In this document: positions 1-10,899 of the stretch, piece by piece
How the letters are laid out: the number at the start of each line of letters is the position of its first letter
Position numbering within the stretch: position 1 is the first letter of the stretch
Source of the DNA: a virus
Taxonomy: Duplodnaviria > Heunggongvirae > Uroviricota > Caudoviricetes
Strand: one strand, 5' to 3'
DNA: 11,449 nucleotides
Virus record (IMG/VR): IMGVR_UViG_2711768062_000006
Program-made: the position numbers and the translations under genes
Notes under the pieces: generated by a model
Told to the model about the DNA's origin: nothing
What the model saw: only the letters and a program-made list of their open reading frames with translations
Database searches by the model: none

Positions 1-1284
1 TTACTTCTTCGCCTCTGCAACCACTTTGCTACCCACGCCGCGATTATTGTATTCCCACATGCGGTTGTAGTTAGTGTCATTCAGATTGCGCTGTATTTCG
101 TCGCTATCGTCAACGCTGCCGGTATTACCCGCAAATGGACGATTGGAAATCACCGCATCGCCCCACGGTTTAACCGTGTTAAAACCTTCGTTGATGGCGC
201 TATCACGGATCACCACCTGACCGTTGGTATTGGCATCAACATCCAGCGAGCGGCCCAGTTGTGCCACGCCATCACCGGAAGCATTGAAACGGCTGTTTAC
301 GGCGAGGAAACCGTAATAGATGTTGGACAGCGTAGCCGGTGCAAACACATACGCTTCTTGCTGAGTACGTGAGTTCACCACGCGGAATTCGGTGTTATCG
401 AACACCACTGCGCCGCGACCAGAAACGATATCCACATCCCCTTCAATATAGCTGTTGGTCACCAGCGTACGCGGCTGACGGTTGGTTTCCAGACGGTTCT
501 GCACACCGCTGTTGGTGACAAAGAAGGTGTTCTGACGACCGAGAATGTTAACGTTGTTAATCTGTACCTGGTCACCATCAGTACGCAGTGCCACCGCCGG
601 ATGGTTACCTGCATCTACGCTATCGCCCAGCGTGTTTTCGATGGTCAGATTTTGCAGTTGCAGGCCATTGTTTTGTGACCAGAAGACCGCAGAGCAGAGA
701 ACACCGATACTGTCGCTGCGTTTGCTCTGGCAGCTATCGTACATATACCACGCTGGTTTACCTGGCATATATTTGCCGCGCGGGTTGACGTCGTGACGCC
801 AGTCGGTAGGGCTCATGCCACCATCAAGGGAAAGCCCAATCTTCACATCAATCGGTTTTTCACCTGTACCGTACAGAGTAATTCCACCCGGAGCGGCAGG
901 GACATATACCGTTCCCTGATACTCACCAGGCATCACGGCAATATACTGGCGCTTGTTGGTACGCTTGATAATTGCCGCATCTACCGCCGCCTGAATCGTG
1001 GTATGCGTTACACCTTGAGTGCCCGCCGGGCCGACAACAAATTCAGGTTGCGCAGGCAGGGTAATCGGGGAAGGATTCCACGCTGCAGCACCTGGTGTCA
1101 GGGATGCAAAATAGTGTTGAGCATCGAAATTCTGCGCTTCTTTTGCCGACAGAATCGGGCGAGAAGAGGTACCAGGCGCGGTTTGATCAGAAGGACGTTG
1201 ATCGGGCGGGGTTGAGCTACAGGCGGTCAGCGTCACGCCAAAAGCCAATGCCAGCGCCAGACGGGAAACTGAAAATGTGTTCAC
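1..1284 (-). CDS. ybhC: Host outer-membrane lipoprotein YbhC (pectinesterase-family, putative acyl-CoA thioesterase); complete, 427 aa
   Basis: Full-length minus-strand ORF with GTG start at 1284-1282 and TAA stop at 3-1. N-terminus MNTFSVSRLALALAFGVTLTACSS has a lipoprotein signal peptide with lipobox LTAC. Recalled as E. coli YbhC, the gene that flanks lambda attB on the gal side. Identity is from memory, not a search. Confidence 0.85.
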   Translation of the reverse strand: MNTFSVSRLALALAFGVTLTACSSTPPDQRPSDQTAPGTSSRPILSAKEAQNFDAQHYFASLTPGAAAWNPSPITLPAQPEFVVGPAGTQGVTHTTIQAAVDAAIIKRTNKRQYIAVMPGEYQGTVYVPAAPGGITLYGTGEKPIDVKIGLSLDGGMSPTDWRHDVNPRGKYMPGKPAWYMYDSCQSKRSDSIGVLCSAVFWSQNNGLQLQNLTIENTLGDSVDAGNHPAVALRTDGDQVQINNVNILGRQNTFFVTNSGVQNRLETNRQPRTLVTNSYIEGDVDIVSGRGAVVFDNTEFRVVNSRTQQEAYVFAPATLSNIYYGFLAVNSRFNASGDGVAQLGRSLDVDANTNGQVVIRDSAINEGFNTVKPWGDAVISNRPFAGNTGSVDDSDEIQRNLNDTNYNRMWEYNNRGVGSKVVAEAKK

Positions 1285-1330
1285 AGGTTGCTCCGGGCTA
1301 TGAAATAGAAAAATGAATCCGTTGAAGCCT

Positions 1331-1345
1331 GCTTTTTTATACTAA
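1331..1345. other. attL core (common core O) of the lambda-type attachment site
   Basis: Exact 15-bp lambda core GCTTTTTTATACTAA. Left flank is host (ybhC side, B arm); right flank continues as the lambda P' arm (GTTGGCATTATAAAAAAGCATTGCTTATCAATTTGTTGCAACGAACAGGTCACTATCAGTCAAAATAAAATCATTATTTG). B-O-P' order with int immediately following defines attL. Confidence 0.9.
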
Positions 1346-2892: not shown

Positions 2893-3134
2893 TTATCATC
2901 TCCATAAAACAAAACCCGCCGTAGCGAGTTCAGATAAAAGAAATCCTCGTCAGTGCGAGGATGCTGTTCATTGCTGCTATACACTTTTTTGCTCTCAACG
3001 TAAGCGGTAGCCCATTCTGTTGGGTTGGTGCAGTTGCTTTTAGGAAATGCTATTTACCCCTTAAATGTCGGCTGAAAGAGCTAAAATCCATGCAAAAAAT
3101 TTACGCAATTTTGTGTATTATTGTGCAGTAAGTA

Positions 3135-3737
3135 ATGAGCTATTTTCTGCGCAAAAAATGGATGGTAAATTTGTCCGGGTCAGGAAAAATTTTATGGGCG
3201 CTAAACATGAAAAAAGATTCGTATCCTTATTTGATTTGCATGACAGTTTCAGGGCTGATCTTTATTTTCCTTTTCTTCTGGTGGCGGGCAGATATCTACA
3301 GGGTCACGTTTCTTAATCAGAGTATATCCCACTATTACATTCTGTTTAGCATGGGAATAGCTTTTCTGTTATCTCTGTTTTGGGTTAAGAAGGGGATAGT
3401 AAAACAAAGAGGCTGGAAGAGTCTGTCAGCATACCTTAAGGTTTATGCAGGGATGTGCATATTTGCTGGATTTTTTCTGATTATACCCCTTACGACACTA
3501 ACTTATTTTTTGCCTGGAGAGACATCGTCTTATGTTGCACCGTATCGGTATACTTCCGGTAGTTCAAAAAGTTGTTCTGGAGCTGAGGTGGATGACCCCG
3601 ATCTACATGAGAATATTCGCATTTGCTATCCGTATGGCAATTATGAGTACGATAATATTATCTATGTTGAAAAGAAAATTAATATATTAGGTGCGGTAGT
3701 GACATATGCACAGACCGCGCGTGATGATACTGAATGA
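3135..3737 (+). CDS. Unrecognised integral-membrane protein (up to 200 aa): three predicted TM helices plus a ~75-aa Cys-containing C-terminal domain, in an AT-rich insert
   Basis: Long ORF in a region visibly more AT-rich than its flanks. Hydrophobic segments YLICMTVSGLIFIFLFFWW, ISHYYILFSMGIAFLLSLFWV and VYAGMCIFAGFFLIIPLTTLTYFL. Lysine/arginine-rich loops (MKKDS, KKGIVKQRGWKS) suggest N-in topology with the C-terminal domain outside. Start is uncertain: in-frame ATGs at 3135, 3162 and 3207, none with a clear Shine-Dalgarno. It is the only plus-strand gene inside the minus-strand early-left operon. Confidence 0.65.
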   Translation: MSYFLRKKWMVNLSGSGKILWALNMKKDSYPYLICMTVSGLIFIFLFFWWRADIYRVTFLNQSISHYYILFSMGIAFLLSLFWVKKGIVKQRGWKSLSAYLKVYAGMCIFAGFFLIIPLTTLTYFLPGETSSYVAPYRYTSGSSKSCSGAEVDDPDLHENIRICYPYGNYEYDNIIYVEKKINILGAVVTYAQTARDDTE

Positions 3738-3771
3738 TATAGTATATAGCGGGCAAGTTTTAGTTAATTTA

Positions 3772-3795
3772 TCGAGGTAATATAATTTACCTCGA
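3772..3795 (+). terminator. Candidate intrinsic terminator for the membrane-protein gene
   Basis: Perfect 9-bp inverted repeat TCGAGGTAA / TTACCTCGA (3772-3780 and 3787-3795) with 6-nt loop TATAAT, 35 nt after the TGA stop, followed by CTCGTTTGTTCT. Confidence 0.5.
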
Positions 3796-3947
3796 CTCGT
3801 TTGTTCTGGTATTAATATTTCGCTTTACGACCGATTTTTATCTGATGATATCATGCGGTTTTCATATACTGACTTACTGTCTTTTCTCCGTTAGCGATTT
3901 TCTCCTGCTCAGCGATGATTTTATCTTTGGCTTCTAGTTAATTTCGC

Positions 3948-4906: not shown

Positions 4907-5583
4907 CGCCATTGCTCCCCAAATACAAAACCAATTTCAGCCAGTGCCTCGTCCATTTTTTCGATGAACTCCGGCACCATCTCGTCAAAACTCGCTATAT
5001 ACTTTTCATTCCGCTCAATCACGACATAATGCAGGCCTTCACGCTTCATACGCGGGTCATAGTTGGCAAAGTACCAGGCATCTTTTCGCGTCACCCACAT
5101 GCTGTACTGCACCTGGGCCATGTAAGCCGACTTTATGGCCTCGAAACCACCGAGCCGGAATTTCATGAAATCCCGGGAGGTAAACGGGCATTTCAGCTCA
5201 AGGCCATTGCCGTCACTGCATAAACCATCGGGAGAGCAGGCGGTGCGCATACTTTCGTCGCGATAGATGATCGGGGATTCAATAACATTTACGCCGGAAG
5301 TGAACTCAAACAGGGTTCTGGCGTCGTTCTCGTACTGTTTTCCCCAGGCCAGCGCTTTAGCGTTAACTTCCGGAGCCACACCGGTGCAAACCTCAGCCAG
5401 CAGGGTGTGGAAGTAGGACATTTTCATGTCAGGCCACTTCTTTCCTGATCGGGGCTTTGCTATCACGTTGTGAACTTCTGAAGCGGTGATGACGCCGAGC
5501 CGTAATTTGTGCCATGCATCATCCCCCTGTTCGACAGCTCTCACGTCGATCCCGGTACGCTGCAGGATAATGTCCGGTGTCAT
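4903..5583 (-). CDS. exo: Lambda exonuclease (Red-alpha), 226 aa
   Basis: [65 protein letters not shown]...FGEQWR matches recalled lambda Exo. Start overlaps the bet stop by 4 nt (ATGA). Confidence 0.97.
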
Positions 5584-6365
5584 GCTGCCACCTTCTGCTC
5601 AGTGGCTTTCTGTTTCAGGAATCCAAGAGCTTTCACTGCTTCGGCCTGTGTCAGTTCTGACGATGCGCGAATGTCGCGGCGAAATATCTGGGAACAGAGC
5701 GGCAATAAGTCGTCATCCCATGTTTTATCCAGGGCGATCAGCAGAGTGTTAATCTCCTGCATGGTTTCATCGTTAACCGGAGTGATGTCGCGTTCCGGCT
5801 GACGTTCTGCAGTGTATGCAGTATTTTCGACAATGCGCTCGGCTTCATCCTTGTCATAGATACCAGCAAATCCGAAGGCCAGACGGGCACACTGAATCAT
5901 GGCTTTATGCCGTAACATCCGTTTGGGATGCGACTGCCACGGTCCGGTGATTTCTCTGCCTTCGCGGGTTTTGAATGGTTCGCGGCGGCATTCATCCATC
6001 CACTCGGTAACGCAGATCGGATGATTGCGGTCCTTGCGGTAAATCCGGCATGTGCAGGATTCGTTGTCCTGTTCAAAGTCCATGCCGTCAAACTGCTGGT
6101 TTTCGTTGATGATGCGGGACCAGCCATCAACGCCCACCACCGGAACGATGCCGTTCTGCTTATCAGGGAAGGCGTAAATTTCTTTCGTCCACGGATTAAG
6201 ACCGTACTGGTTGGCGACGATCAGCAATGCGATGAACTGCGCATCGCTGGCATCACCTTTAAATGCCGTCTGGCGAAGAGTGGTGATCAGTTCCTGTGGG
6301 TCGACAGAATCCATGCCGACTCGTTCAGCCAGCTTCCCAGCCAGCGTTGCGAGTGCTGTACTCAT
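5580..6365 (-). CDS. bet: Lambda Bet (Red-beta single-strand annealing protein), 261 aa
   Basis: [66 protein letters not shown]...EQKVAA matches recalled lambda Bet. Confidence 0.97.
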
Positions 6366-6370
6366 CCGTT

Positions 6371-6667
6371 TTATACCTCTGAATCAATATCAACCTGGTG
6401 GTGAGCAATGGTTTCAACCATGTACCGGATGTGTTCTGCCATGCGCTCCTGAAACTCAACATCGTCATCAAACGCACGGGTAATGGCTTTTTTGCTGGCC
6501 CCGTGGCGTTGCAAATGATCGATGCATAGCGATTCAAACAGGTGCTGGGGCAGGCCTTTTTCCATGTCGTCTGCCAGTTCTGCCTCTTTCTCTTCACGGG
6601 CGATCTGCTGGTAGTGACGCACCCAGCTCTGAGCCTCAAGACGATCCTGAATGTAATAAGCGTTCAT
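6371..6667 (-). CDS. gam: Gam (RecBCD inhibitor), 98-aa short form only
   Basis: [60 protein letters not shown]...[10 protein letters not shown] matches recalled lambda Gam from its internal Met. AGGAG sits 7 nt upstream of the ATG. An in-frame TAA at plus 6722-6724 rules out a lambda-style 138-aa form. Confidence 0.93.
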
Positions 6668-6742
6668 GGCTGAACTCCTGAAAATGGCTGTGAAAATATC
6701 GCCCGCGAAATGCCAGGCTGATTAGAAAAACAGGAAAGGGGA

Positions 6743-6949
6743 TTAGTGATTCAGGCCGTTGCCGCGTCCGTCGAGAAAAACTTCCACGAGCAAGTCACGG
6801 GTATAAGTGCGCTCGATGCCGCGATGCAGATAAAGCCGTCCGCGTAAATTAGCTGATGCAGTCCAGGTACCATCTTTGTGTTTGACCAGCATTCCTGGCA
6901 TGACCGCACCGCGATTAACGGTCTGCGTTCCGTAATGTTGATGAACCAT
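6743..6949 (-). CDS. Hypothetical protein, 68 aa, at the kil position between pL and gam; identity not established
   Basis: ATG at 6949-6947 preceded by AGGAG (plus 6955-6959) and a 5-nt spacer. Protein MVHQHYGTQTVNRGAVMPGMLVKHKDGTWTASANLRGRLYLHRGIERTYTRDLLVEVFLDGRGNGLNH. I could not match it to lambda Kil from memory. Confidence 0.55.
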   Translation of the reverse strand: MVHQHYGTQTVNRGAVMPGMLVKHKDGTWTASANLRGRLYLHRGIERTYTRDLLVEVFLDGRGNGLNH

Positions 6950-7118
6950 AAAAACTCCTGCCCGTAAGCTGGGCTGCTGAACAAATGAGGGGTTGCGCAG
7001 TATCTGGCGGTGGATGGCCGCCGGTTGTCATAACTAAGCCGCCTTGTTGAAGCGACTGAGGTATGAGGTGTTGAGTTGATTTCAGCTGGTCACACCGACG
7101 TTCACGCGTCCGTTTCAC
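6915..7118 (-). CDS. Speculative short N-like ORF, 67 aa from GTG, with an arginine-rich N-terminus (MKRTRERRCDQ)
   Basis: GTG at 7118-7116 with GGGGAG 8 nt upstream. First gene-like frame after the pL-like promoter. N-terminal RTRERR resembles the arginine-rich motif of lambda N (recalled QTRRRERRAEKQAQW). It overlaps the next ORF by 35 nt and is far shorter than known N proteins. Confidence 0.25.
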   Translation of the reverse strand: MKRTRERRCDQLKSTQHLIPQSLQQGGLVMTTGGHPPPDTAQPLICSAAQLTGRSFYGSSTLRNADR

Positions 7119-7224
7119 CCCTCGCACTCCCCGGAGCCTGCTGAAATTCAAGCTGCGGATCTAAGCGGTCATCGCAACGGTGAATCAGGTGGTTGCCGTA
7201 TCGTTGTGTTGTTGCGATGAACTT

Positions 7225-7253
7225 ATTTAAAACTATAGTTGTTTTATCGTCAA
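7225..7253 (-). promoter_or_regulatory. pL-like leftward promoter with embedded operator half-sites
   Basis: On the minus strand: -35 TTGACG (plus 7248-7253), 17-bp spacer, -10 TTAAAT (plus 7225-7230). The surrounding 35 bp is nearly identical to the pR-like module at 8272-8306 and contains GTTGTT/AACAAC inverted repeats and the palindrome AACTATAGTT (7231-7240). Confidence 0.5.
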
Positions 7254-7390
7254 CAACAAAAGTTGTTTTATTGGTTGTTTTAGATATAACTGGTTGTATT
7301 TAGGATGGATTTATTTTGTGACTTGAATCGCATAGCGATAACTGAAGCGAGGTTATGGTGGTTTTTTTAACGGTGTGTGATGAGGGGAGG

Positions 7391-7419
7391 GCAAAAGAAA
7401 ACCCGGCACGGTGACCGGG
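7391..7419 (-). terminator. Intrinsic terminator after the repressor gene
   Basis: On the minus strand: CCCGG-UCACCGUG-CCGGG hairpin (plus 7402-7419) followed by UUUUCUUUUGC (plus 7391-7401), about 120 nt after the repressor stop. Confidence 0.55.
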
Positions 7420-7540
7420 ATTCTTACGCCGTTAGGTAAAGATATTATTGCGGTGGCTTAATATTACTACCTAGAGCAAAGATAGGAATTAGTTCTTTAC
7501 TGAATGAGCACAATGCCCAGTTGATAATTTTTAATTGGTA

Positions 7541-8230
7541 CTACCCATGCTTCCTATATGTCTGCGGCATGCTCCCAATAACCTTACCGAAGATGAACAC
7601 CCGGTTCATCTCGTCTTTCTCGATCGGGTCCCACGGTGAGTAGCTTTTGTTATCAGAGATGACCAGCAGCTTATCCTTCATCATTTGCAGGCGCTTTACA
7701 TGGGCTGTGTCGTCGTACAGAAACGCATAGATACCATCACCGTCGAAAGATTTAACAGTGATATCAACGAACAGCAGATCACCTGGTTCGATCGTTCCTG
7801 ACATGCTGTCACCACGCACGTTAATGATGCGGATATTTTCCGCCTTCCTACCATCGAACATGTGACGAGCATCGTCAAACGAGTACTCAACCGAGCGTAG
7901 AACTTCTACAAACTCACGGTTGATGACTCCCGGCCCAGCACTGACTTCTATATCAAGAACGTCAATCTTGAAGTATTTGGAATGGCTGACAGTTGATTGT
8001 ATTGGTTGCACTGTACTGTCTGACATATTTCCAATGCCAGAAGATAACCATTCTGCGCGCACACCCAAAGCGTTCGCGATCTCCACGATTTTAGTTGTTT
8101 GGTTAGCTTTCCCTGTTTCGATTTTCTGAATAGCAGCCTGGCTAACCCCAACCAAATCCCCAAGTGCCTTTTGTGTAAGGCCTCGCGCTAATCTGGCTTC
8201 TTTAAGTCTTTCTGAGAGTGTTGTTTTCAT
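7541..8230 (-). CDS. cI: CI-type prophage repressor, N-terminal HTH plus C-terminal S24 (LexA-like) autopeptidase; 229 aa from the MKTT start
   Basis: MKTTLSERLKEARLARGLTQKALGDLVGVSQAAIQKIETG is an XRE-type HTH. Candidate Ala-Gly cleavage site in EVSAGPG, catalytic Ser in GDSMSGT and Lys in VKRLQ. The ORF track starts at 8296, but that ATG lies inside the operator palindrome and pR. The 8230 start would give a leaderless transcript from the pRM-like promoter. Not lambda cI by sequence. Confidence 0.85.
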   Translation of the reverse strand: MKTTLSERLKEARLARGLTQKALGDLVGVSQAAIQKIETGKANQTTKIVEIANALGVRAEWLSSGIGNMSDSTVQPIQSTVSHSKYFKIDVLDIEVSAGPGVINREFVEVLRSVEYSFDDARHMFDGRKAENIRIINVRGDSMSGTIEPGDLLFVDITVKSFDGDGIYAFLYDDTAHVKRLQMMKDKLLVISDNKSYSPWDPIEKDEMNRVFIFGKVIGSMPQTYRKHG

Positions 8231-8236
8231 AGACCA

Positions 8237-8265
8237 AATGTACAACCAAGGTTTTATTTCATCAA
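8237..8265 (-). promoter_or_regulatory. pRM-like promoter for the repressor gene, predicting a leaderless mRNA
   Basis: On the minus strand: -35 TTGATG (plus 8260-8265), 17-bp spacer, -10 TACATT (plus 8237-8242). The predicted start falls at or next to the A of the ATG at 8230. Confidence 0.4.
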
Positions 8266-8271
8266 GCGAAA

Positions 8272-8296
8272 ATGGTTGTTGACTAAAAACAACCAT
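8272..8296. promoter_or_regulatory. Candidate operator: 25-bp perfect-arm palindrome ATGGTTGTT-N7-AACAACCAT overlapping the pR -35
   Basis: The 9-bp arms are exact reverse complements. Related half-sites (TGGTTGT/ACAACCA, GTTGTT/AACAAC) recur at 8242-8248, 8289-8295 and across 7238-7300. Confidence 0.5.
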
Positions 8297-8305
8297 AGTT
8301 TTAAT
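8278..8305 (+). promoter_or_regulatory. pR-like rightward promoter driving cro
   Basis: -35 TTGACT (8278-8283), 16-bp spacer, -10 TTTAAT (8300-8305), then GGAGG (8325-8329) and the cro ATG at 8335. Confidence 0.55.
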
Positions 8306-8334
8306 CTTGGTTCAGATTAACCACGGAGGTTGTT

Positions 8335-8565
8335 ATGAACCCAGCAATCAAAACAGCGATCAATATAGTTGGTTCACAAAAGAAATTGGGCGATGCCTGC
8401 GAAGTTTCACAGCAGGCCGTCTATAAGTGGCTTCACAACAAAGCAAAGGTATCCCCTGAACATGTCGGCAGCATTGTTACGGCTACTGGTGGAGTTGTGA
8501 AGGCGTACCAGATTCGCCCGGATCTTCCGAAGTTGTTTCCACACACCGAAAAGAACGCAGCTTAA
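8335..8565 (+). CDS. cro: Cro-like regulator of the YdaS type, 76 aa
   Basis: First rightward gene after pR with a strong GGAGG RBS. Motifs SQ..L...VSQQAVYKW...V.PE....I..ATGG.V.....RPDL fit my recollection of the YdaS-type Cro family. Not lambda Cro. Confidence 0.8.
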   Translation: MNPAIKTAINIVGSQKKLGDACEVSQQAVYKWLHNKAKVSPEHVGSIVTATGGVVKAYQIRPDLPKLFPHTEKNAA

Positions 8566-8577
8566 ATTTCCATTTCA

Positions 8578-8623
8578 CGCTCTTTAACAATAAGCAATCA
8601 ACTTAACAGACTGATTAACAGTC
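8578..8623 (+). promoter_or_regulatory. nutR-like element: boxA-like CGCTCTTTAACAA plus a boxB-like stem-loop GACTG-ATTAA-CAGTC
   Basis: 12 of the 13 nt (GCTCTTTAACAA) match the boxA consensus as I recall it. The stem-loop 18 nt downstream has a 5-bp stem and 5-nt loop, as in lambda boxB, but a different loop sequence. Position just after cro matches lambda nutR. Confidence 0.45.
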
Positions 8624-8646
8624 AATTCAAACTAAAGGAATCAATT

Positions 8647-8805
8647 ATGCAACCAATTACATACCAACAGACTAGCGGATTTACCCCGACTGCGGTGATA
8701 AATCGTTCTCAAACAAAACAGGCGCCAGGCCACGAAAAAATCCGTGATGCCGTTCGGCCTGGTCGGCTGCAGATAATCAGGATGTTGTTGCCGCACTCAT
8801 TGTGA
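8647..8805 (+). CDS. Small ORF, 52 aa, with a strong RBS; either a real small protein or the frameshifted 5' part of the following gene
   Basis: AAGGAA (8635-8640) 6 nt before ATG 8647. MQPITYQQTSGFTPTAVINRSQTKQAPGHEKIRDAVRPGRLQIIRMLLPHSL. Its TGA stop (8803-8805) overlaps the GTG start of the next ORF as GTGA. No lambda CII similarity. Confidence 0.4.
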   Translation: MQPITYQQTSGFTPTAVINRSQTKQAPGHEKIRDAVRPGRLQIIRMLLPHSL

Positions 8806-9185
8806 ATGAGTATCGGGAGCTGGGCGGCGGCACCATCGATTTCCCTGATGATGTCAGCCGTGCACGCCAGAAGTTGTTCCGCTTCCTCGATAACAAATTC
8901 GATTCTGAAAAATACCGAAATAACCTGCGTGAACTGACCCCGGCAATTCTGGCGGTACTACCGCTGGAATATCGCGGCCACCTGGTTGAGCAGGATAGCT
9001 TCATGGCTCGGCTGGTTGAAATGGAAAAGGAACTCAGTGAGGCAAAGCAGGCGGTCATTCTCAACGCACCACGCCACCAGAAACTGAAGGAAATGAGTGA
9101 AGGTATTGTGTCGATGTTTCGCGTGGACCCGGATCTGGCTGGTCCATTAATGGCGATGGTTACCACCATGCTGGGGGCAATATGA
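8802..9185 (+). CDS. Hypothetical protein, 127 aa from a GTG start, at the cII position; possibly a YdaT-like CII-equivalent, possibly N-terminally truncated
   Basis: GTG start with no Shine-Dalgarno of its own. The frame is open and coding-like for 18 codons upstream with no start codon. Motifs EYRELGGG and LTPAILAVLP resemble what I recall of E. coli YdaT; this recollection is unverified. Confidence 0.5.
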   Translation: MNEYRELGGGTIDFPDDVSRARQKLFRFLDNKFDSEKYRNNLRELTPAILAVLPLEYRGHLVEQDSFMARLVEMEKELSEAKQAVILNAPRHQKLKEMSEGIVSMFRVDPDLAGPLMAMVTTMLGAI

Positions 9186-9271
9186 CAGGTTCAGAAATGG
9201 CGAAAGTCGGTCTGCGGGAACAGAACCGACTTTCAGGTGCAAATCGTAACGCACTCATTACGGGAGGAATT

Positions 9272-10201
9272 ATGGCAAACACTGCTGAGATATTCAATTT
9301 TCCAGTGCCGGATGTGGCACAAAAGGAGCCGCGCGTGGCAGATCTCGATGATGGTTATACGCGCATTGCAAATGAGTTGCTGGAAGTTGTAATGCTGGCC
9401 GGATTAACACAGCACCAGCTTCTGGTCTTCCTGGCTGTCATGCGCAAAACATATGGCTTTAATAAAAAACTGGATTGGGTGAGCAACGAGCAACTTTCCG
9501 AGTTAACCGGGATATTGCCGCACAAGTGTTCTGCTGCAAAAAGTGTTCTGGTAAAGCGTGGGATTTTAATTCAGAGCGGGCGGAATATCGGCATCAATAA
9601 TGTGGTCAGTGAATGGTCAACATTACCCGAATCAGGTAAGAAAAATAAAGTTTACCTGAAAGAGGTAAATTTACCTGAATCAGGTAAGAAAAGTTTACCT
9701 AAATCAGGTAAACGCCTTTACCCGAATCAGGTAAACACAAAAGACAAACTAACAAAAGACAATATAAAACCTTTTTCGTCAGAGAATTCTGGCGAATCCT
9801 CTGACCAGCCAGAAAACGATCTTCCTGTGGTGAAACCGGATGCTGCAATTCAGAGCGGCAGCAAGTGGGGGACAGCAGAAGACCTGACCGCCGCAGAGTG
9901 GATGTTTGACATGGTGAAGACCATCGCGCCATCAGCCAGAAAACCGAATTTTGCAGGGTGGGCTAACGATATCCGCCTGATGCGTGAACGTGACGGACGT
10001 AACCACCGCGACATGTGTGTACTGTTCCGCTGGGCATGCCAGGACAACTTCTGGTCCGGTAACGTGCTGAGTCCGGCCAAACTCCGCGACAAGTGGACCC
10101 AGCTCGAAATCAACCGAAACAAGCAACAGGCTGGCGTGACAGCCGGCAAACCAAAACTCGACCTGACGAACACTGACTGGATTTACGGGGTGGAGCTATG
10201 A
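9272..10201 (+). CDS. O: Replication initiator, lambda O-like, 309 aa from the second in-frame ATG; divergent N-terminal domain, lambda-like C-terminal domain
   Basis: GGGAGG precedes ATG 9272 (MANTAEIFNF...), which parallels the lambda O start MTNTAKILNF. The C-terminal ~110 aa (AEDLTAAEWMFDMVKTIAP...TNTDWIYGVEL) match recalled lambda O. The ORF-track start at 9182 gives 339 aa. Overlaps P by 4 nt (ATGA). Confidence 0.85.
   Translation: MANTAEIFNFPVPDVAQKEPRVADLDDGYTRIANELLEVVMLAGLTQHQLLVFLAVMRKTYGFNKKLDWVSNEQLSELTGILPHKCSAAKSVLVKRGILIQSGRNIGINNVVSEWSTLPESGKKNKVYLKEVNLPESGKKSLPKSGKRLYPNQVNTKDKLTKDNIKPFSSENSGESSDQPENDLPVVKPDAAIQSGSKWGTAEDLTAAEWMFDMVKTIAPSARKPNFAGWANDIRLMRERDGRNHRDMCVLFRWACQDNFWSGNVLSPAKLRDKWTQLEINRNKQQAGVTAGKPKLDLTNTDWIYGVEL
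9623..9734. repeat. Replication-origin iterons: five 17-bp palindromic repeats TTACC-N7-GGTAA inside the O gene
   Basis: Copies at 9623-9639, 9652-9668, 9671-9687, 9695-9711 and 9718-9734, followed by an A-rich tract (ACACAAAAGACAAACTAACAAAAGACAATATAAAAC). They encode the peptide repeat LPESGKK/LPKSGK in O. Architecture parallels the lambda origin, which lies inside O. Confidence 0.8.
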
Positions 10202-10899
10202 AAAACATCGCCGCACAGATGGTTAACTTTGACCGTGAGCAGATGCGCCGGATCGCCAACAACATGCCGGAACAGTACGACGAAAAGCCGCAGGTACAAC
10301 AGGTAGCGCAGATCATCAATGGTGTGTTCAGCCAGTTACTGGCAACTTTCCCGGCGAGCCTGGCTAACCGGGACCAGAACGAACTGAACGAAATCCGCCG
10401 CCAGTGGGTGCTGGCTTTCCGGGAAAACGGGATCACCACAATGGAACAGGTTAACGCAGGAATGCGCGTAGCCCGTCGGCAGAATCGACCATTCCTGCCA
10501 TCACCCGGGCAGTTTGTTGCCTGGTGCCGGGAAGAAGCATCCGTTAACGCCGGGCTGCCAAACGTCAGCGAGCTGGTTGATATGGTCTATGAGTATTGTC
10601 GGAAGCGTGGCCTGTATCCGGATGCAGAGTCTTATCCGTGGAAATCAAACGCGCACTACTGGCTGGTTACCAACCTGTACCAGAACATGCGGGCCAATGC
10701 GCTTACTGATGCGGAATTACGGCGCAAGGCTGCCGATGAACTGACTTGTATGACCGCGCGAATTAACCGTGGTGAGGCGATACCTGAACCAGTAAAACAA
10801 CTTCCTGTCATGGGCGGTAGACCTCTAAATCGTGCACAGGCTCTGGCGAAGATCGCAGAAATCAAAGCGAAGTTCGGACTGAAAGGAGCAACTGTATGA
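10198..10899 (+). CDS. P: Replication protein P (DnaB helicase loader), 233 aa
   Basis: MKNIAAQMVNFDREQMRRIANNMPEQYDEKPQVQQVAQIINGVFSQLLATFPASLANRDQNE... matches recalled lambda P almost exactly. ATGA overlaps with O upstream and ren downstream. Confidence 0.97.
   Translation: MKNIAAQMVNFDREQMRRIANNMPEQYDEKPQVQQVAQIINGVFSQLLATFPASLANRDQNELNEIRRQWVLAFRENGITTMEQVNAGMRVARRQNRPFLPSPGQFVAWCREEASVNAGLPNVSELVDMVYEYCRKRGLYPDAESYPWKSNAHYWLVTNLYQNMRANALTDAELRRKAADELTCMTARINRGEAIPEPVKQLPVMGGRPLNRAQALAKIAEIKAKFGLKGATV

What the first reader, a model, noticed from the sequence alone, without database searches (positions are those of the whole stretch)
9600..9780. Origin inside the O gene with five palindromic iterons matched to a divergent O N-terminal domain
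Five copies of TTACC-N7-GGTAA with irregular spacing (29, 19, 24 and 23 bp between starts) are followed by an A-rich tract, all inside O, where they encode the repeat LPESGKK. The O C-terminal (P-interacting) domain and P are lambda-like, but the O N-terminal (iteron-binding) domain differs from lambda. The mosaic boundary therefore falls within O, pairing a distinct origin specificity with lambda P.
Basis: partly seen in the sequence, partly recalled or inferred. Interest (0 to 1): 0.45.

Follow-up and report, generated by a model that had tools for sequence, protein, structure and literature searches.

The report
Non-lambda replication origin inside prophage O gene
This is an ordinary lambda-family phage replication origin inside the initiator gene O; its five binding repeats and DNA-binding domain differ from lambda's and are joined to lambda's P-interacting half, a textbook mosaic that is very common in E. 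coli prophages.

Summary
Five exact TTACC-N7-GGTAA palindromes start at 9623, 9652, 9671, 9695 and 9718 (0.01 expected by chance). They lie inside gene O (9272-10201) and are followed by an A-rich, 25% GC tract.

The interpretation also holds. The O N-terminal winged-helix domain is 48% identical to lambda's. O from about residue 168 onward, and P, are about 98% identical to lambda. The crossover maps to 9765-9775, at the right edge of the A-rich tract.

- **Architecture:** iterons 2-5 align in register with lambda's four iterons (spacing 19/24/23 against 20/24/23). Iteron 1 is an extra upstream copy.
- **Selection:** the half-sites are invariant in relatives from E. coli, Klebsiella and Salmonella whose N-terminal DNA is 78-96% identical. 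Only 48% of third codon positions are invariant there.
- **Wider carriers:** the same iteron type occurs in seven more genera of Enterobacterales, with 4 to 9 copies. It always accompanies the helix motif LPHKCSAAKS, and it is joined to at least five different C-terminal modules.
- **Prevalence:** this origin type is in 45% of complete E. coli genomes (lambda type 25%) and in 15 isolated phages.

It is not the lambda, phi80, P22 or SEN34 type. It may be the classical phage 82 origin, which I could not check. It is ordinary biology and of low interest.

The parts
9272..10201 (+). Gene O, the replication initiator (309 aa). The start is ATG 9272, preceded by GGGAGGAA. Many database copies are annotated from an upstream ATG at 9182 (339 aa).
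   Evidence: The N-terminus MANTAEIFNF aligns with lambda MTNTAKILNF.
9332..9616 (+). Coding region for the O N-terminal origin-binding winged-helix domain (residues 21-115). The predicted recognition helix is residues 83-95, PHKCSAAKSVLVK.
   Evidence: Pfam PF04492, E = 1.2e-33. The AF2 model shows H-H-H-H-beta-beta with a core pLDDT of 66-81. The domain is 47.8% identical to lambda.
9623..9639 (.). Iteron 1, TTACCCGAATCAGGTAA. It is an extra upstream copy, 29 bp before iteron 2. Its right half is degenerate (GGTAC) in Klebsiella and Salmonella relatives, and it is absent in Xenorhabdus, Providencia and Pantoea.
9652..9668 (.). Iteron 2, TTACCTGAAAGAGGTAA. It aligns with lambda ITN1.
9671..9687 (.). 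Iteron 3, TTACCTGAATCAGGTAA. It aligns with lambda ITN2.
9695..9711 (.). Iteron 4, TTACCTAAATCAGGTAA. It aligns with lambda ITN3.
9718..9734 (.). Iteron 5, TTACCCGAATCAGGTAA. It aligns with lambda ITN4.
9735..9775 (+). A-rich, low-GC tract, the presumed DNA-unwinding element. It begins with ACACAAAAGACA...ACAAAAGA, which is conserved after the last iteron in lambda, P22 and all carriers of this iteron type.
9765..9775 (.). Inferred crossover zone between the non-lambda module (immunity region, O N-terminus, iterons) and the lambda module (O C-terminus, P).
   Evidence: Relatives L003, L007 and L011 are homologous up to 9764, and lambda identity is about 97% from 9776.
9778..9805 (.). Lambda-type palindrome to the right of the A-rich tract, GTCAGAGAATTC / GAATCCTCTGAC. 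It is identical to lambda here.
   Evidence: (repeat I11).
9776..10198 (+). Coding region for the O C-terminal domain. By homology with lambda it is the P-interacting domain. It is about 98% identical to lambda.
10198..10899 (+). Gene P, the DnaB helicase loader. It is 228/233 identical to lambda P, and its start overlaps the O stop (ATGA).

Best explanation
This is the theta-replication origin of a lambda-like prophage integrated at att-lambda, built like ori-lambda but with a different initiator-iteron specificity. Proposed mechanism, by analogy with lambda:
1. Dimers of the O N-terminal winged-helix domain bind the dyad-symmetric 17-19-bp iterons TTACC-N7-GGTAA. The four iterons next to the A-rich tract form the core, and iteron 1 is an accessory copy.
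2. The resulting bent nucleoprotein complex destabilises the adjacent A-rich tract (9735-9775).
3. The lambda-type O C-terminal domain recruits the lambda-type P-DnaB complex to load the host helicase.

The iterons, the A-rich tract and the DNA-binding domain are inherited as one module. This module was joined to the lambda O C-terminus and P by recombination at the right edge of the A-rich tract.

Shown here: the anatomy, homology, conservation, co-variation and junction. Inferred from lambda biochemistry: binding, unwinding and P recruitment.
For: - **Array significance and position:** five exact copies against 0.01 expected, all inside O.
- **Gene families:** O matches Phage_rep_O and P matches Phage_lambda_P.
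- **Register with lambda:** iterons 2-5 align without gaps on lambda ITN1-4, with spacing 19/24/23 against 20/24/23.
- **Shared unwinding motif:** the A-rich tract starts with the same ACACAAAAGACA as in lambda and P22, and GC is 25%.
- **DNA-level selection:** half-sites are invariant in 49 of 50 columns across five lineages. Only 48% of N-terminal third codon positions and 52% of inter-iteron positions are invariant. The iterons are read in two frames. They encode a segment predicted to be disordered, with pLDDT about 33.
- **Co-variation of helix and iteron:** all 14 carriers of this iteron type keep the motif TG(I/M)L(P/S)HKCSAAKS, from E. coli to Providencia, which matches only 67 of 116 N-terminal residues. 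P22 (58.6% identical) and SEN34 (61.7% identical) have other residues in that helix and other iterons.
- **Lambda-like partner module:** the C-terminus and P are about 98% identical to lambda.
- **Viable phages:** fifteen isolated, plaque-forming phages carry this O at 97% identity.
- **Mechanistic model:** taken from lambda (PMC5043065, PMC6022878, PMC7466680).
Against: There is no experimental evidence for binding or origin activity of this allele. The structural model has low overall confidence (mean pLDDT 53), and Foldseek hits are weak, with none at E < 1e-3. No solved structure of an O homologue is detectable by sequence. The role of iteron 1 is unknown. In Stx phages with six iterons, only the four proximal ones are bound efficiently (PMC7466680). 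Whether this particular prophage is inducible is not known from an 11-kb window.
Confidence: 0.9

Rival explanations
1. The repeats are a protein-level repeat (LPESGKK) in a low-complexity linker of O, and have no DNA function.
For: Three of the five copies encode LPESGKK, LPESGKK and LPKSGKR. phi80 gp15 has a similar FPKTGK / FPKSG repeat.
Against: - Two copies are read in a different frame.
- Each copy is a perfect DNA palindrome.
- Half-sites are invariant at synonymous positions, while flanking third positions vary.
- The array sits exactly where lambda's O-bound iterons sit.
- Copy number varies from 4 to 9, always as whole DNA units.
Confidence: 0.03
2. It is simply ori-lambda, or an origin of another characterised specificity (phi80 or P22), so there is nothing distinct about it.
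For: The overall architecture, the A-rich tract, the right palindrome, the O C-terminus and P are lambda-like. P22 shares the half-site GGTAAA.
Against: - Lambda iterons are TCCCTCAAAACGAGGGA.
- phi80 iterons are TTCCCGAAAACGGGAA.
- P22 iterons have 5-6-bp centres rather than 7 bp, and its N-terminus is 58.6% identical.
- SEN34 iterons are TTAGC-N7-GCTAA.
Confidence: 0.04
3. It is the already published origin of the classical lambdoid phage 82. From memory, that origin was sequenced in 1979-81, has its own iteron set, and has lambda-compatible O C-terminus and P. If so, the finding is a rediscovery.
For: All 15 isolated phages with this O also carry the phage 82-type nin region, X92588, at about 95% identity (one search compared). 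An E. coli prophage with an identical O N-terminus continues into ybcN-ninE-ybcO-rusA-ylcG-quuD. Lambda-82 hybrids with crossovers inside O are cited in PMC6022878 (Furth and Yates 1978).
Against: No ori82 sequence could be retrieved. No phage 82 record appeared among the matches at 95% or more, although a small phage 82 record is in the collection. No paper in the searchable library prints this iteron. Lambdoid mosaicism weakens inference from linked modules.
Confidence: 0.55
4. It is a decayed origin in a defective prophage, with iterons retained but non-functional.
For: Many E. coli prophages are defective. One close copy (strain DS26-1) has an IS21 insertion in gam.
Against: O and P are intact and overlap as in lambda. 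All five iterons are perfect. Near-identical O genes occur in plaque-forming phages. Conservation is strong across genera.
Confidence: 0.05

Closest known systems
Bacteriophage lambda ori / O / P
   Same: - The origin lies in the middle of the initiator gene.
- The core is four dyad-symmetric iterons of about 18 bp, with spacing 20/24/23 against 19/24/23.
- An adjacent A-rich tract begins ACACAAAAGACA.
- The right palindrome is identical.
- The O C-terminal domain and P are about 98% identical.
- The O stop and P start overlap.
   Different: - The iteron sequence is TTACC-N7-GGTAA rather than TCCCTC-N5-GAGGGA.
- There are five copies instead of four.
- The O N-terminal domain is only 47.8% identical.
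- The recognition helix is PHKCSAAKS rather than VKRCNEAKL.
Salmonella phage P22 ori / gene 18
   Same: It has the closest N-terminal domain among classical phages, at 58.6% identity. It shares the half-sites TTACC / GGTAA(A) and the ACACAAAAGACA tract.
   Different: The P22 iteron centres are 5-6 bp rather than 7 bp, and there are four copies. The P22 gp18 C-terminus is unrelated, and it partners a DnaB-type helicase (gp12) rather than P.
Phage phi80 ori / gene 15 / gene 14
   Same: It has the same architecture, and its C-terminal domain and P homologue belong to the same family.
   Different: Its iterons are TTCCCGAAAACGGGAA, and whole-protein identity of gp15 to this O is 44% in the multiple alignment A2.
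Stx phages 933W / P27 origin with six iterons
   Same: It is a precedent for copies beyond the four-iteron core. There, only the four iterons proximal to the A-rich tract are bound efficiently (PMC7466680).
   Different: Those iterons are lambda-type and are bound by lambda O. Here the specificity differs.
Phage 82 origin (recalled from the literature, not retrievable here)
   Same: It is said to have its own iterons and a lambda-compatible O C-terminus and P. Phages carrying this O have the 82-type nin region.
   Different: Unknown. No sequence comparison was possible.
Iteron-containing plasmid origins (pSC101, P1, RK2 and others)
   Same: They work on the same general principle: winged-helix initiators bind repeated sites next to an AT-rich unwinding element.
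   Different: Plasmid iterons are direct repeats that bind monomers and lie outside the rep gene. These are palindromes inside the coding sequence and bind dimers, by analogy with lambda.

Membership tests
Lambdoid O-type origin (ori inside the initiator gene) | The initiator has an N-terminal Phage_rep_O winged-helix domain. | tested here: met
   PF04492, E = 1.2e-33, residues 21-115. The AF2 core is H-H-H-H-beta-beta.
Lambdoid O-type origin (ori inside the initiator gene) | There is an array of at least four dyad-symmetric iterons of about 18 bp in the middle of the initiator coding sequence. | tested here: met
   Five exact palindromes at codons 118-154.
Lambdoid O-type origin (ori inside the initiator gene) | The iterons are in register with lambda ITN1-4 and are immediately followed by an A/T-rich tract. 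| tested here: met
   Gap-free alignment with lambda; 25% GC and AT skew 0.77; shared ACACAAAAGACA.
Lambdoid O-type origin (ori inside the initiator gene) | A cognate helicase-loader gene lies immediately downstream, matched to the O C-terminal domain. | tested here: met
   P is 228/233 identical to lambda P, and the O C-terminus is about 98% identical.
Lambdoid O-type origin (ori inside the initiator gene) | The initiator binds the iterons, and the region supports O/P-dependent replication. | not testable with these tools
   This needs EMSA or footprinting and a lambda-dv-type plasmid assay.
ori-lambda specificity type (lambda, 434, 933W) | Iteron consensus TCCCTC-N5-GAGGGA and a lambda-type O N-terminal domain. 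| tested here: not met
   The iterons differ at nearly all half-site positions, and the N-terminus is 47.8% identical.
phi80 specificity type | Iteron TTCCCGAAAACGGGAA and a gp15-type N-terminus. | tested here: not met
P22 gene 18 specificity type | Iteron TTTACC-N5-GGTAAA and a gp18-type N-terminus. | tested here: not met
   The half-sites are shared, but the spacer is 7 bp rather than 5-6 bp, the N-terminus is 58.6% identical, and the recognition helix differs.
Phage 82 specificity type | Iterons and O N-terminus identical to the published ori82. | not testable with these tools
   No ori82 sequence is in the collections or papers I could reach. The only evidence is circumstantial linkage to the 82-type nin region.

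The most novel reading that the evidence does not exclude
This TTACC-N7-GGTAA / LPHKCSAAKS origin type is a specificity that has never been characterised, i.e. it is not ori82. It is the commonest O-type origin in E. coli prophages (45% of complete genomes, against 25% for the lambda type). Together with the lambda, phi80, P22 and SEN34 (TTAGC-N7-GCTAA) types it forms a natural allelic series with fixed geometry, from which a recognition code for O winged-helix and iteron pairs could be read. The variable distal iterons (4 to 9 copies) might tune initiation or copy number. The conserved ACACAAAAGACA tract would serve both as unwinding element and as the joint for module exchange.
Probability: 0.3. 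Interest if true: 0.35.

Novelty: new member of a known kind. Interest (0 to 1): 0.15.

Why it matters
It matters little for discovery. It illustrates the classical rule that in lambdoid phages the origin and the DNA-binding half of the initiator travel together, while the C-terminal half travels with the helicase loader.

It has some practical value:
- Prophage annotation pipelines do not mark these iterons.
- This origin type is more frequent in E. coli than the lambda type.
- The set of related specificities with identical geometry could serve as orthogonal O/ori pairs, or as material for studying initiator-iteron co-evolution and replication-based exclusion between co-resident prophages.

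Tried and rejected
- **Rfam:** the scan of the whole window gave no match.
- **Solved structures:** a sequence search with O gave no match.
- **Structure model:** the AF2 model from a shallow alignment had mean pLDDT 53. Foldseek against PDB returned only weak winged-helix hits (CRP, NtcA, MarR, Fur), none at E < 1e-3. I use this only as being consistent with a wHTH.
- **Terminator call:** the terminator-like hit on the minus strand at 9713-9693 is iteron 4 itself, so it is an artefact of the palindrome.
- **Search for ori82:** full-text searches for the iteron sequence and for phage 82 origin descriptions found nothing. The 1981 Tsurimoto paper and the Casjens-Hendrix review are not held.
- **Junction prevalence:** the query 9600-10300 against E. 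coli genomes cannot count the specific chimera, because lambda-type copies already cover more than 80% of it.
- **Phage D2:** its O gene is split into two CDS, with the lambda-iteron part out of frame (this type to about residue 83, then lambda sequence). I set it aside as uninformative.

Full report
**Observation**

The region 9600-9780 contains five exact matches to TTACC-N7-GGTAA, at 9623, 9652, 9671, 9695 and 9718. These are the only exact matches in the window. The chance expectation is 0.01, and none of 200 dinucleotide-preserving shuffles reached 5. With two mismatches allowed, no further copies appear near the array. Start-to-start spacing is 29, 19, 24 and 23 bp.

An A-rich tract follows immediately at 9735-9775. 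It contains a duplicated ACAAAAGACAA. GC falls to 25% and AT skew reaches +0.77.

The array lies inside a 309-codon gene, 9272-10201. This gene matches Pfam Phage_rep_O at residues 21-115. The next gene, 10198-10899, matches Phage_lambda_P.

Iterons 1, 3 and 4 are read as LPESGKK, LPESGKK and LPKSGKR. Iterons 2 and 5 are read in another frame.

**Context**

The window is the left arm of a lambda-like prophage integrated at att-lambda.
- A host pectinesterase-like gene occupies 1-1284.
- Lambda homology begins at 1331, which corresponds to the lambda attP core (lambda 27724).
- int, xis, exo, bet and gam are 97-99% identical to lambda.
- Two blocks are not lambda: 2963-3935 and 6750-9734.
- The second block holds a different cI, a YdaS-like Cro, a YdaT-like protein in the cII position, and the O N-terminus with the iterons.

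**The mosaic junction**

BLASTN places the resumption of lambda homology at 9735, directly after iteron 5. Within 9735-9775 the window resembles its non-lambda relatives, which stay homologous up to 9764. From 9776 (TTCGTCAGAGAATTC...) it is about 97% identical to lambda, and this continues through P. The crossover therefore lies at about 9765-9775.

At the protein level, O residues 1-115 are 47.8% identical to lambda. O from about residue 168 differs from lambda at three positions, and P is 228/233 identical.

**Architecture compared with lambda**

In a gap-free stretch of the alignment, iterons 2-5 sit exactly on lambda ITN1-4. Lambda's iterons start at 39034, 39054, 39078 and 39101, giving spacing 20/24/23 against 19/24/23 here. 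The apparent irregularity is therefore the conserved lambda architecture plus one extra copy 29 bp upstream.

The first 12 bp after the last iteron, ACACAAAAGACA, are identical in lambda, P22 and every carrier of this iteron type that I examined. The lambda right-hand palindrome is present at 9778-9805.

**Evidence that the repeats are functional DNA sites**

I compared five lineages: the window, an E. coli 284-aa form, two Klebsiella phages and a Salmonella prophage. Their N-terminal DNA is 78-96% identical.

| Class of position | Invariant columns |
|---|---|
| Iteron half-sites | 49 of 50 |
| Half-sites of iterons 2-5 | 40 of 40 |
| Third codon positions of the N-terminal domain | 48% |
| Positions between iterons | 52% |

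The encoded segment, residues 111-168, is predicted to be disordered with pLDDT about 33. The preceding core is H-H-H-H-beta-beta with pLDDT 66-81. The conservation is thus at the DNA level.

**Distribution and co-variation**

A scan of one genome per species with the iteron 3-4 pair found nine more carriers. They are in Pseudocitrobacter, Kluyvera, Enterobacter, Xenorhabdus, Providencia, Klebsiella and Pantoea.

In every carrier the iterons lie inside an O-like gene. The four copies next to the A-rich tract are always spaced 19/24/23. The total number of copies varies:

| Copies | Carriers |
|---|---|
| 4 | Xenorhabdus, Providencia, Pantoea |
| 5 | E. coli, Klebsiella, Enterobacter, Pseudocitrobacter |
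| 7 | a Salmonella prophage |
| 9 | Kluyvera |

All carriers keep TG(I/M)L(P/S)HKCSAAKS in the predicted recognition helix. This holds even for Providencia, which matches only 67 of 116 N-terminal residues. Initiators that are equally or less divergent have other helices and other iterons:

| Phage | N-terminal identity to the window | Helix residues | Iteron |
|---|---|---|---|
| P22 | 58.6% | APTKCSTAKN | TTTACC-N5-GGTAAA |
| SEN34 | 61.7% | HHTHCSTAKN | TTAGC-N7-GCTAA |
| lambda | 47.8% | PVKRCNEAKL | TCCCTC-N5-GAGGGA |
| phi80 | 44% over the whole protein (multiple alignment) | SDTHVSDALK | TTCCC-N6-GGGAA |

They are the expected signature of a specificity determinant, although this remains an inference.

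**Modularity**

Downstream of the A-rich tract, the same N-terminus and origin module is joined to at least five unrelated C-terminal sequences. Examples include:
- the lambda type, with P (the window);
- an NPPKSPRAVSFD type, with a DnaC/IstB-like ATPase (E. coli, Klebsiella, Enterobacter);
- the same body with a different tail of about 25 residues, next to a distant P homologue that is 36% identical to lambda P (Salmonella);
- other types in Providencia, Pantoea and Klebsiella sp..

The junction used in the window is therefore one instance of a recurrent exchange point.

**Prevalence**

The 499-bp segment holding the N-terminus and iterons is present at 95% identity or more in 2453 of 5426 complete E. 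coli genomes. The equivalent lambda segment is in 1368. The exact protein is on 137 contigs, and its 90%-identity cluster has 7825 members. Fifteen isolated phages, including 4A7, Lambda_4C10, 1W, 3W, Perceval and several PhiR phages, carry the full gene at about 97% identity, annotated as replication protein O. None of the records I inspected annotates the iterons.

**Mechanism**

By homology with lambda, O dimers would bind each palindromic iteron through the winged-helix domain and bend the DNA. The assembled complex on supercoiled DNA would open the adjacent A-rich tract. The C-terminal domain would then dock P-DnaB (PMC5043065; PMC6022878, citing Furth and Yates 1978 and Wickner and Zahn 1986). 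In Stx phages with six iterons only the four proximal ones are bound efficiently (PMC7466680). This suggests that iteron 1 is accessory. It is degenerate in Klebsiella and Salmonella relatives and absent in the four-iteron carriers. Binding, unwinding and P recruitment are inferred, not shown.

**Is it already described?**

It is not the lambda, phi80, P22 or SEN34 type; all four were tested here. From memory, the origin of phage 82 was sequenced in 1979-81, has its own iterons, and works with a lambda-compatible O C-terminus and P.

Circumstantial evidence points that way. All 15 phages with this O also carry the phage 82-type nin region (X92588, about 95% identical). A prophage with an identical O N-terminus continues into ybcN-ninE-ybcO-rusA-ylcG-quuD. 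I could not retrieve an ori82 sequence, and no paper in the searchable library prints this iteron. I put the chance that this is ori82 at roughly 55%.

**Verdict**

What is there is a standard lambdoid origin of a non-lambda specificity, in a textbook mosaic, and it is extremely common. Interest is low.

Noticed in passing
window 9203-9297, minus strand: A sigma-70-like promoter (TTGAAT-17-CATAAT with an upstream TG) lies on the minus strand at 9297-9269, inside the start of O. A 9-bp hairpin lies at 9203-9233, at the position where lambda has pO and the oop terminator. This may be an oop-like antisense RNA. Rfam gives no match, and the hairpin lacks a good U-run.
   Followed up: partly
window 1-1345: The prophage left end lies at about 1331, which corresponds to the lambda attP core (27724). 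It adjoins a host pectinesterase-like gene (1-1284, minus strand). This fits integration at att-lambda with a lambda-type int/xis at 98.6% identity.
   Followed up: partly
window 2963-3935: A non-lambda insert replaces the lambda ea8.5/ea22 region. It contains a plus-strand ORF (3135-3737, 200 aa) with no Pfam match, annotated as a hypothetical protein in E. coli genomes.
   Followed up: no
window 7541-9185: The immunity region is not lambda. It has an S24/HTH repressor (7541-8296), a YdaS-like Cro (8335-8565) and a YdaT-like protein (8802-9185) in the cII position. The same gene order occurs in E. coli locus L007.
   Followed up: partly
L009 2852-3011; L017 (Kluyvera): The iteron array expands by whole units. 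A Salmonella prophage has seven copies (two extra 24-bp units). A Kluyvera prophage has nine (two extra 48-bp units of two iterons each). The last three spacings stay at 19/24/23.
   Followed up: partly
L007 and L011 O genes: Two O proteins are 85% identical over residues 1-259 and differ in the remaining C-terminal tail. One is followed by a DnaC/IstB-like ATPase and the other by a distant P homologue (36% identical to lambda P). This may mark a second exchange point and a partner-specific tail.
   Followed up: partly
L005 (phage D2) 1411-2432: O is annotated as two CDS. It has the N-terminus of the window type to about residue 83, then lambda sequence including the lambda iterons in another frame. 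This is either a recombinant with a frameshift or a sequencing error.
   Followed up: no
L004 (SEN34) 1873-1940: SEN34 carries a further iteron type, TTAGC-N7-GCTAA, with spacing 24 and 23. It has the same geometry as the window type, with the inner dinucleotide of each half-site changed (CC to GC and GG to GC). It is paired with a lambda-like O C-terminus and P.
   Followed up: partly
L015 (E. coli DS26-1) 4964-7395: In a prophage whose O N-terminus/iteron segment and 9600-10300 are 100% identical to the window, gam is interrupted by an IS21 element. At least some copies of this prophage family are therefore decaying.
   Followed up: no
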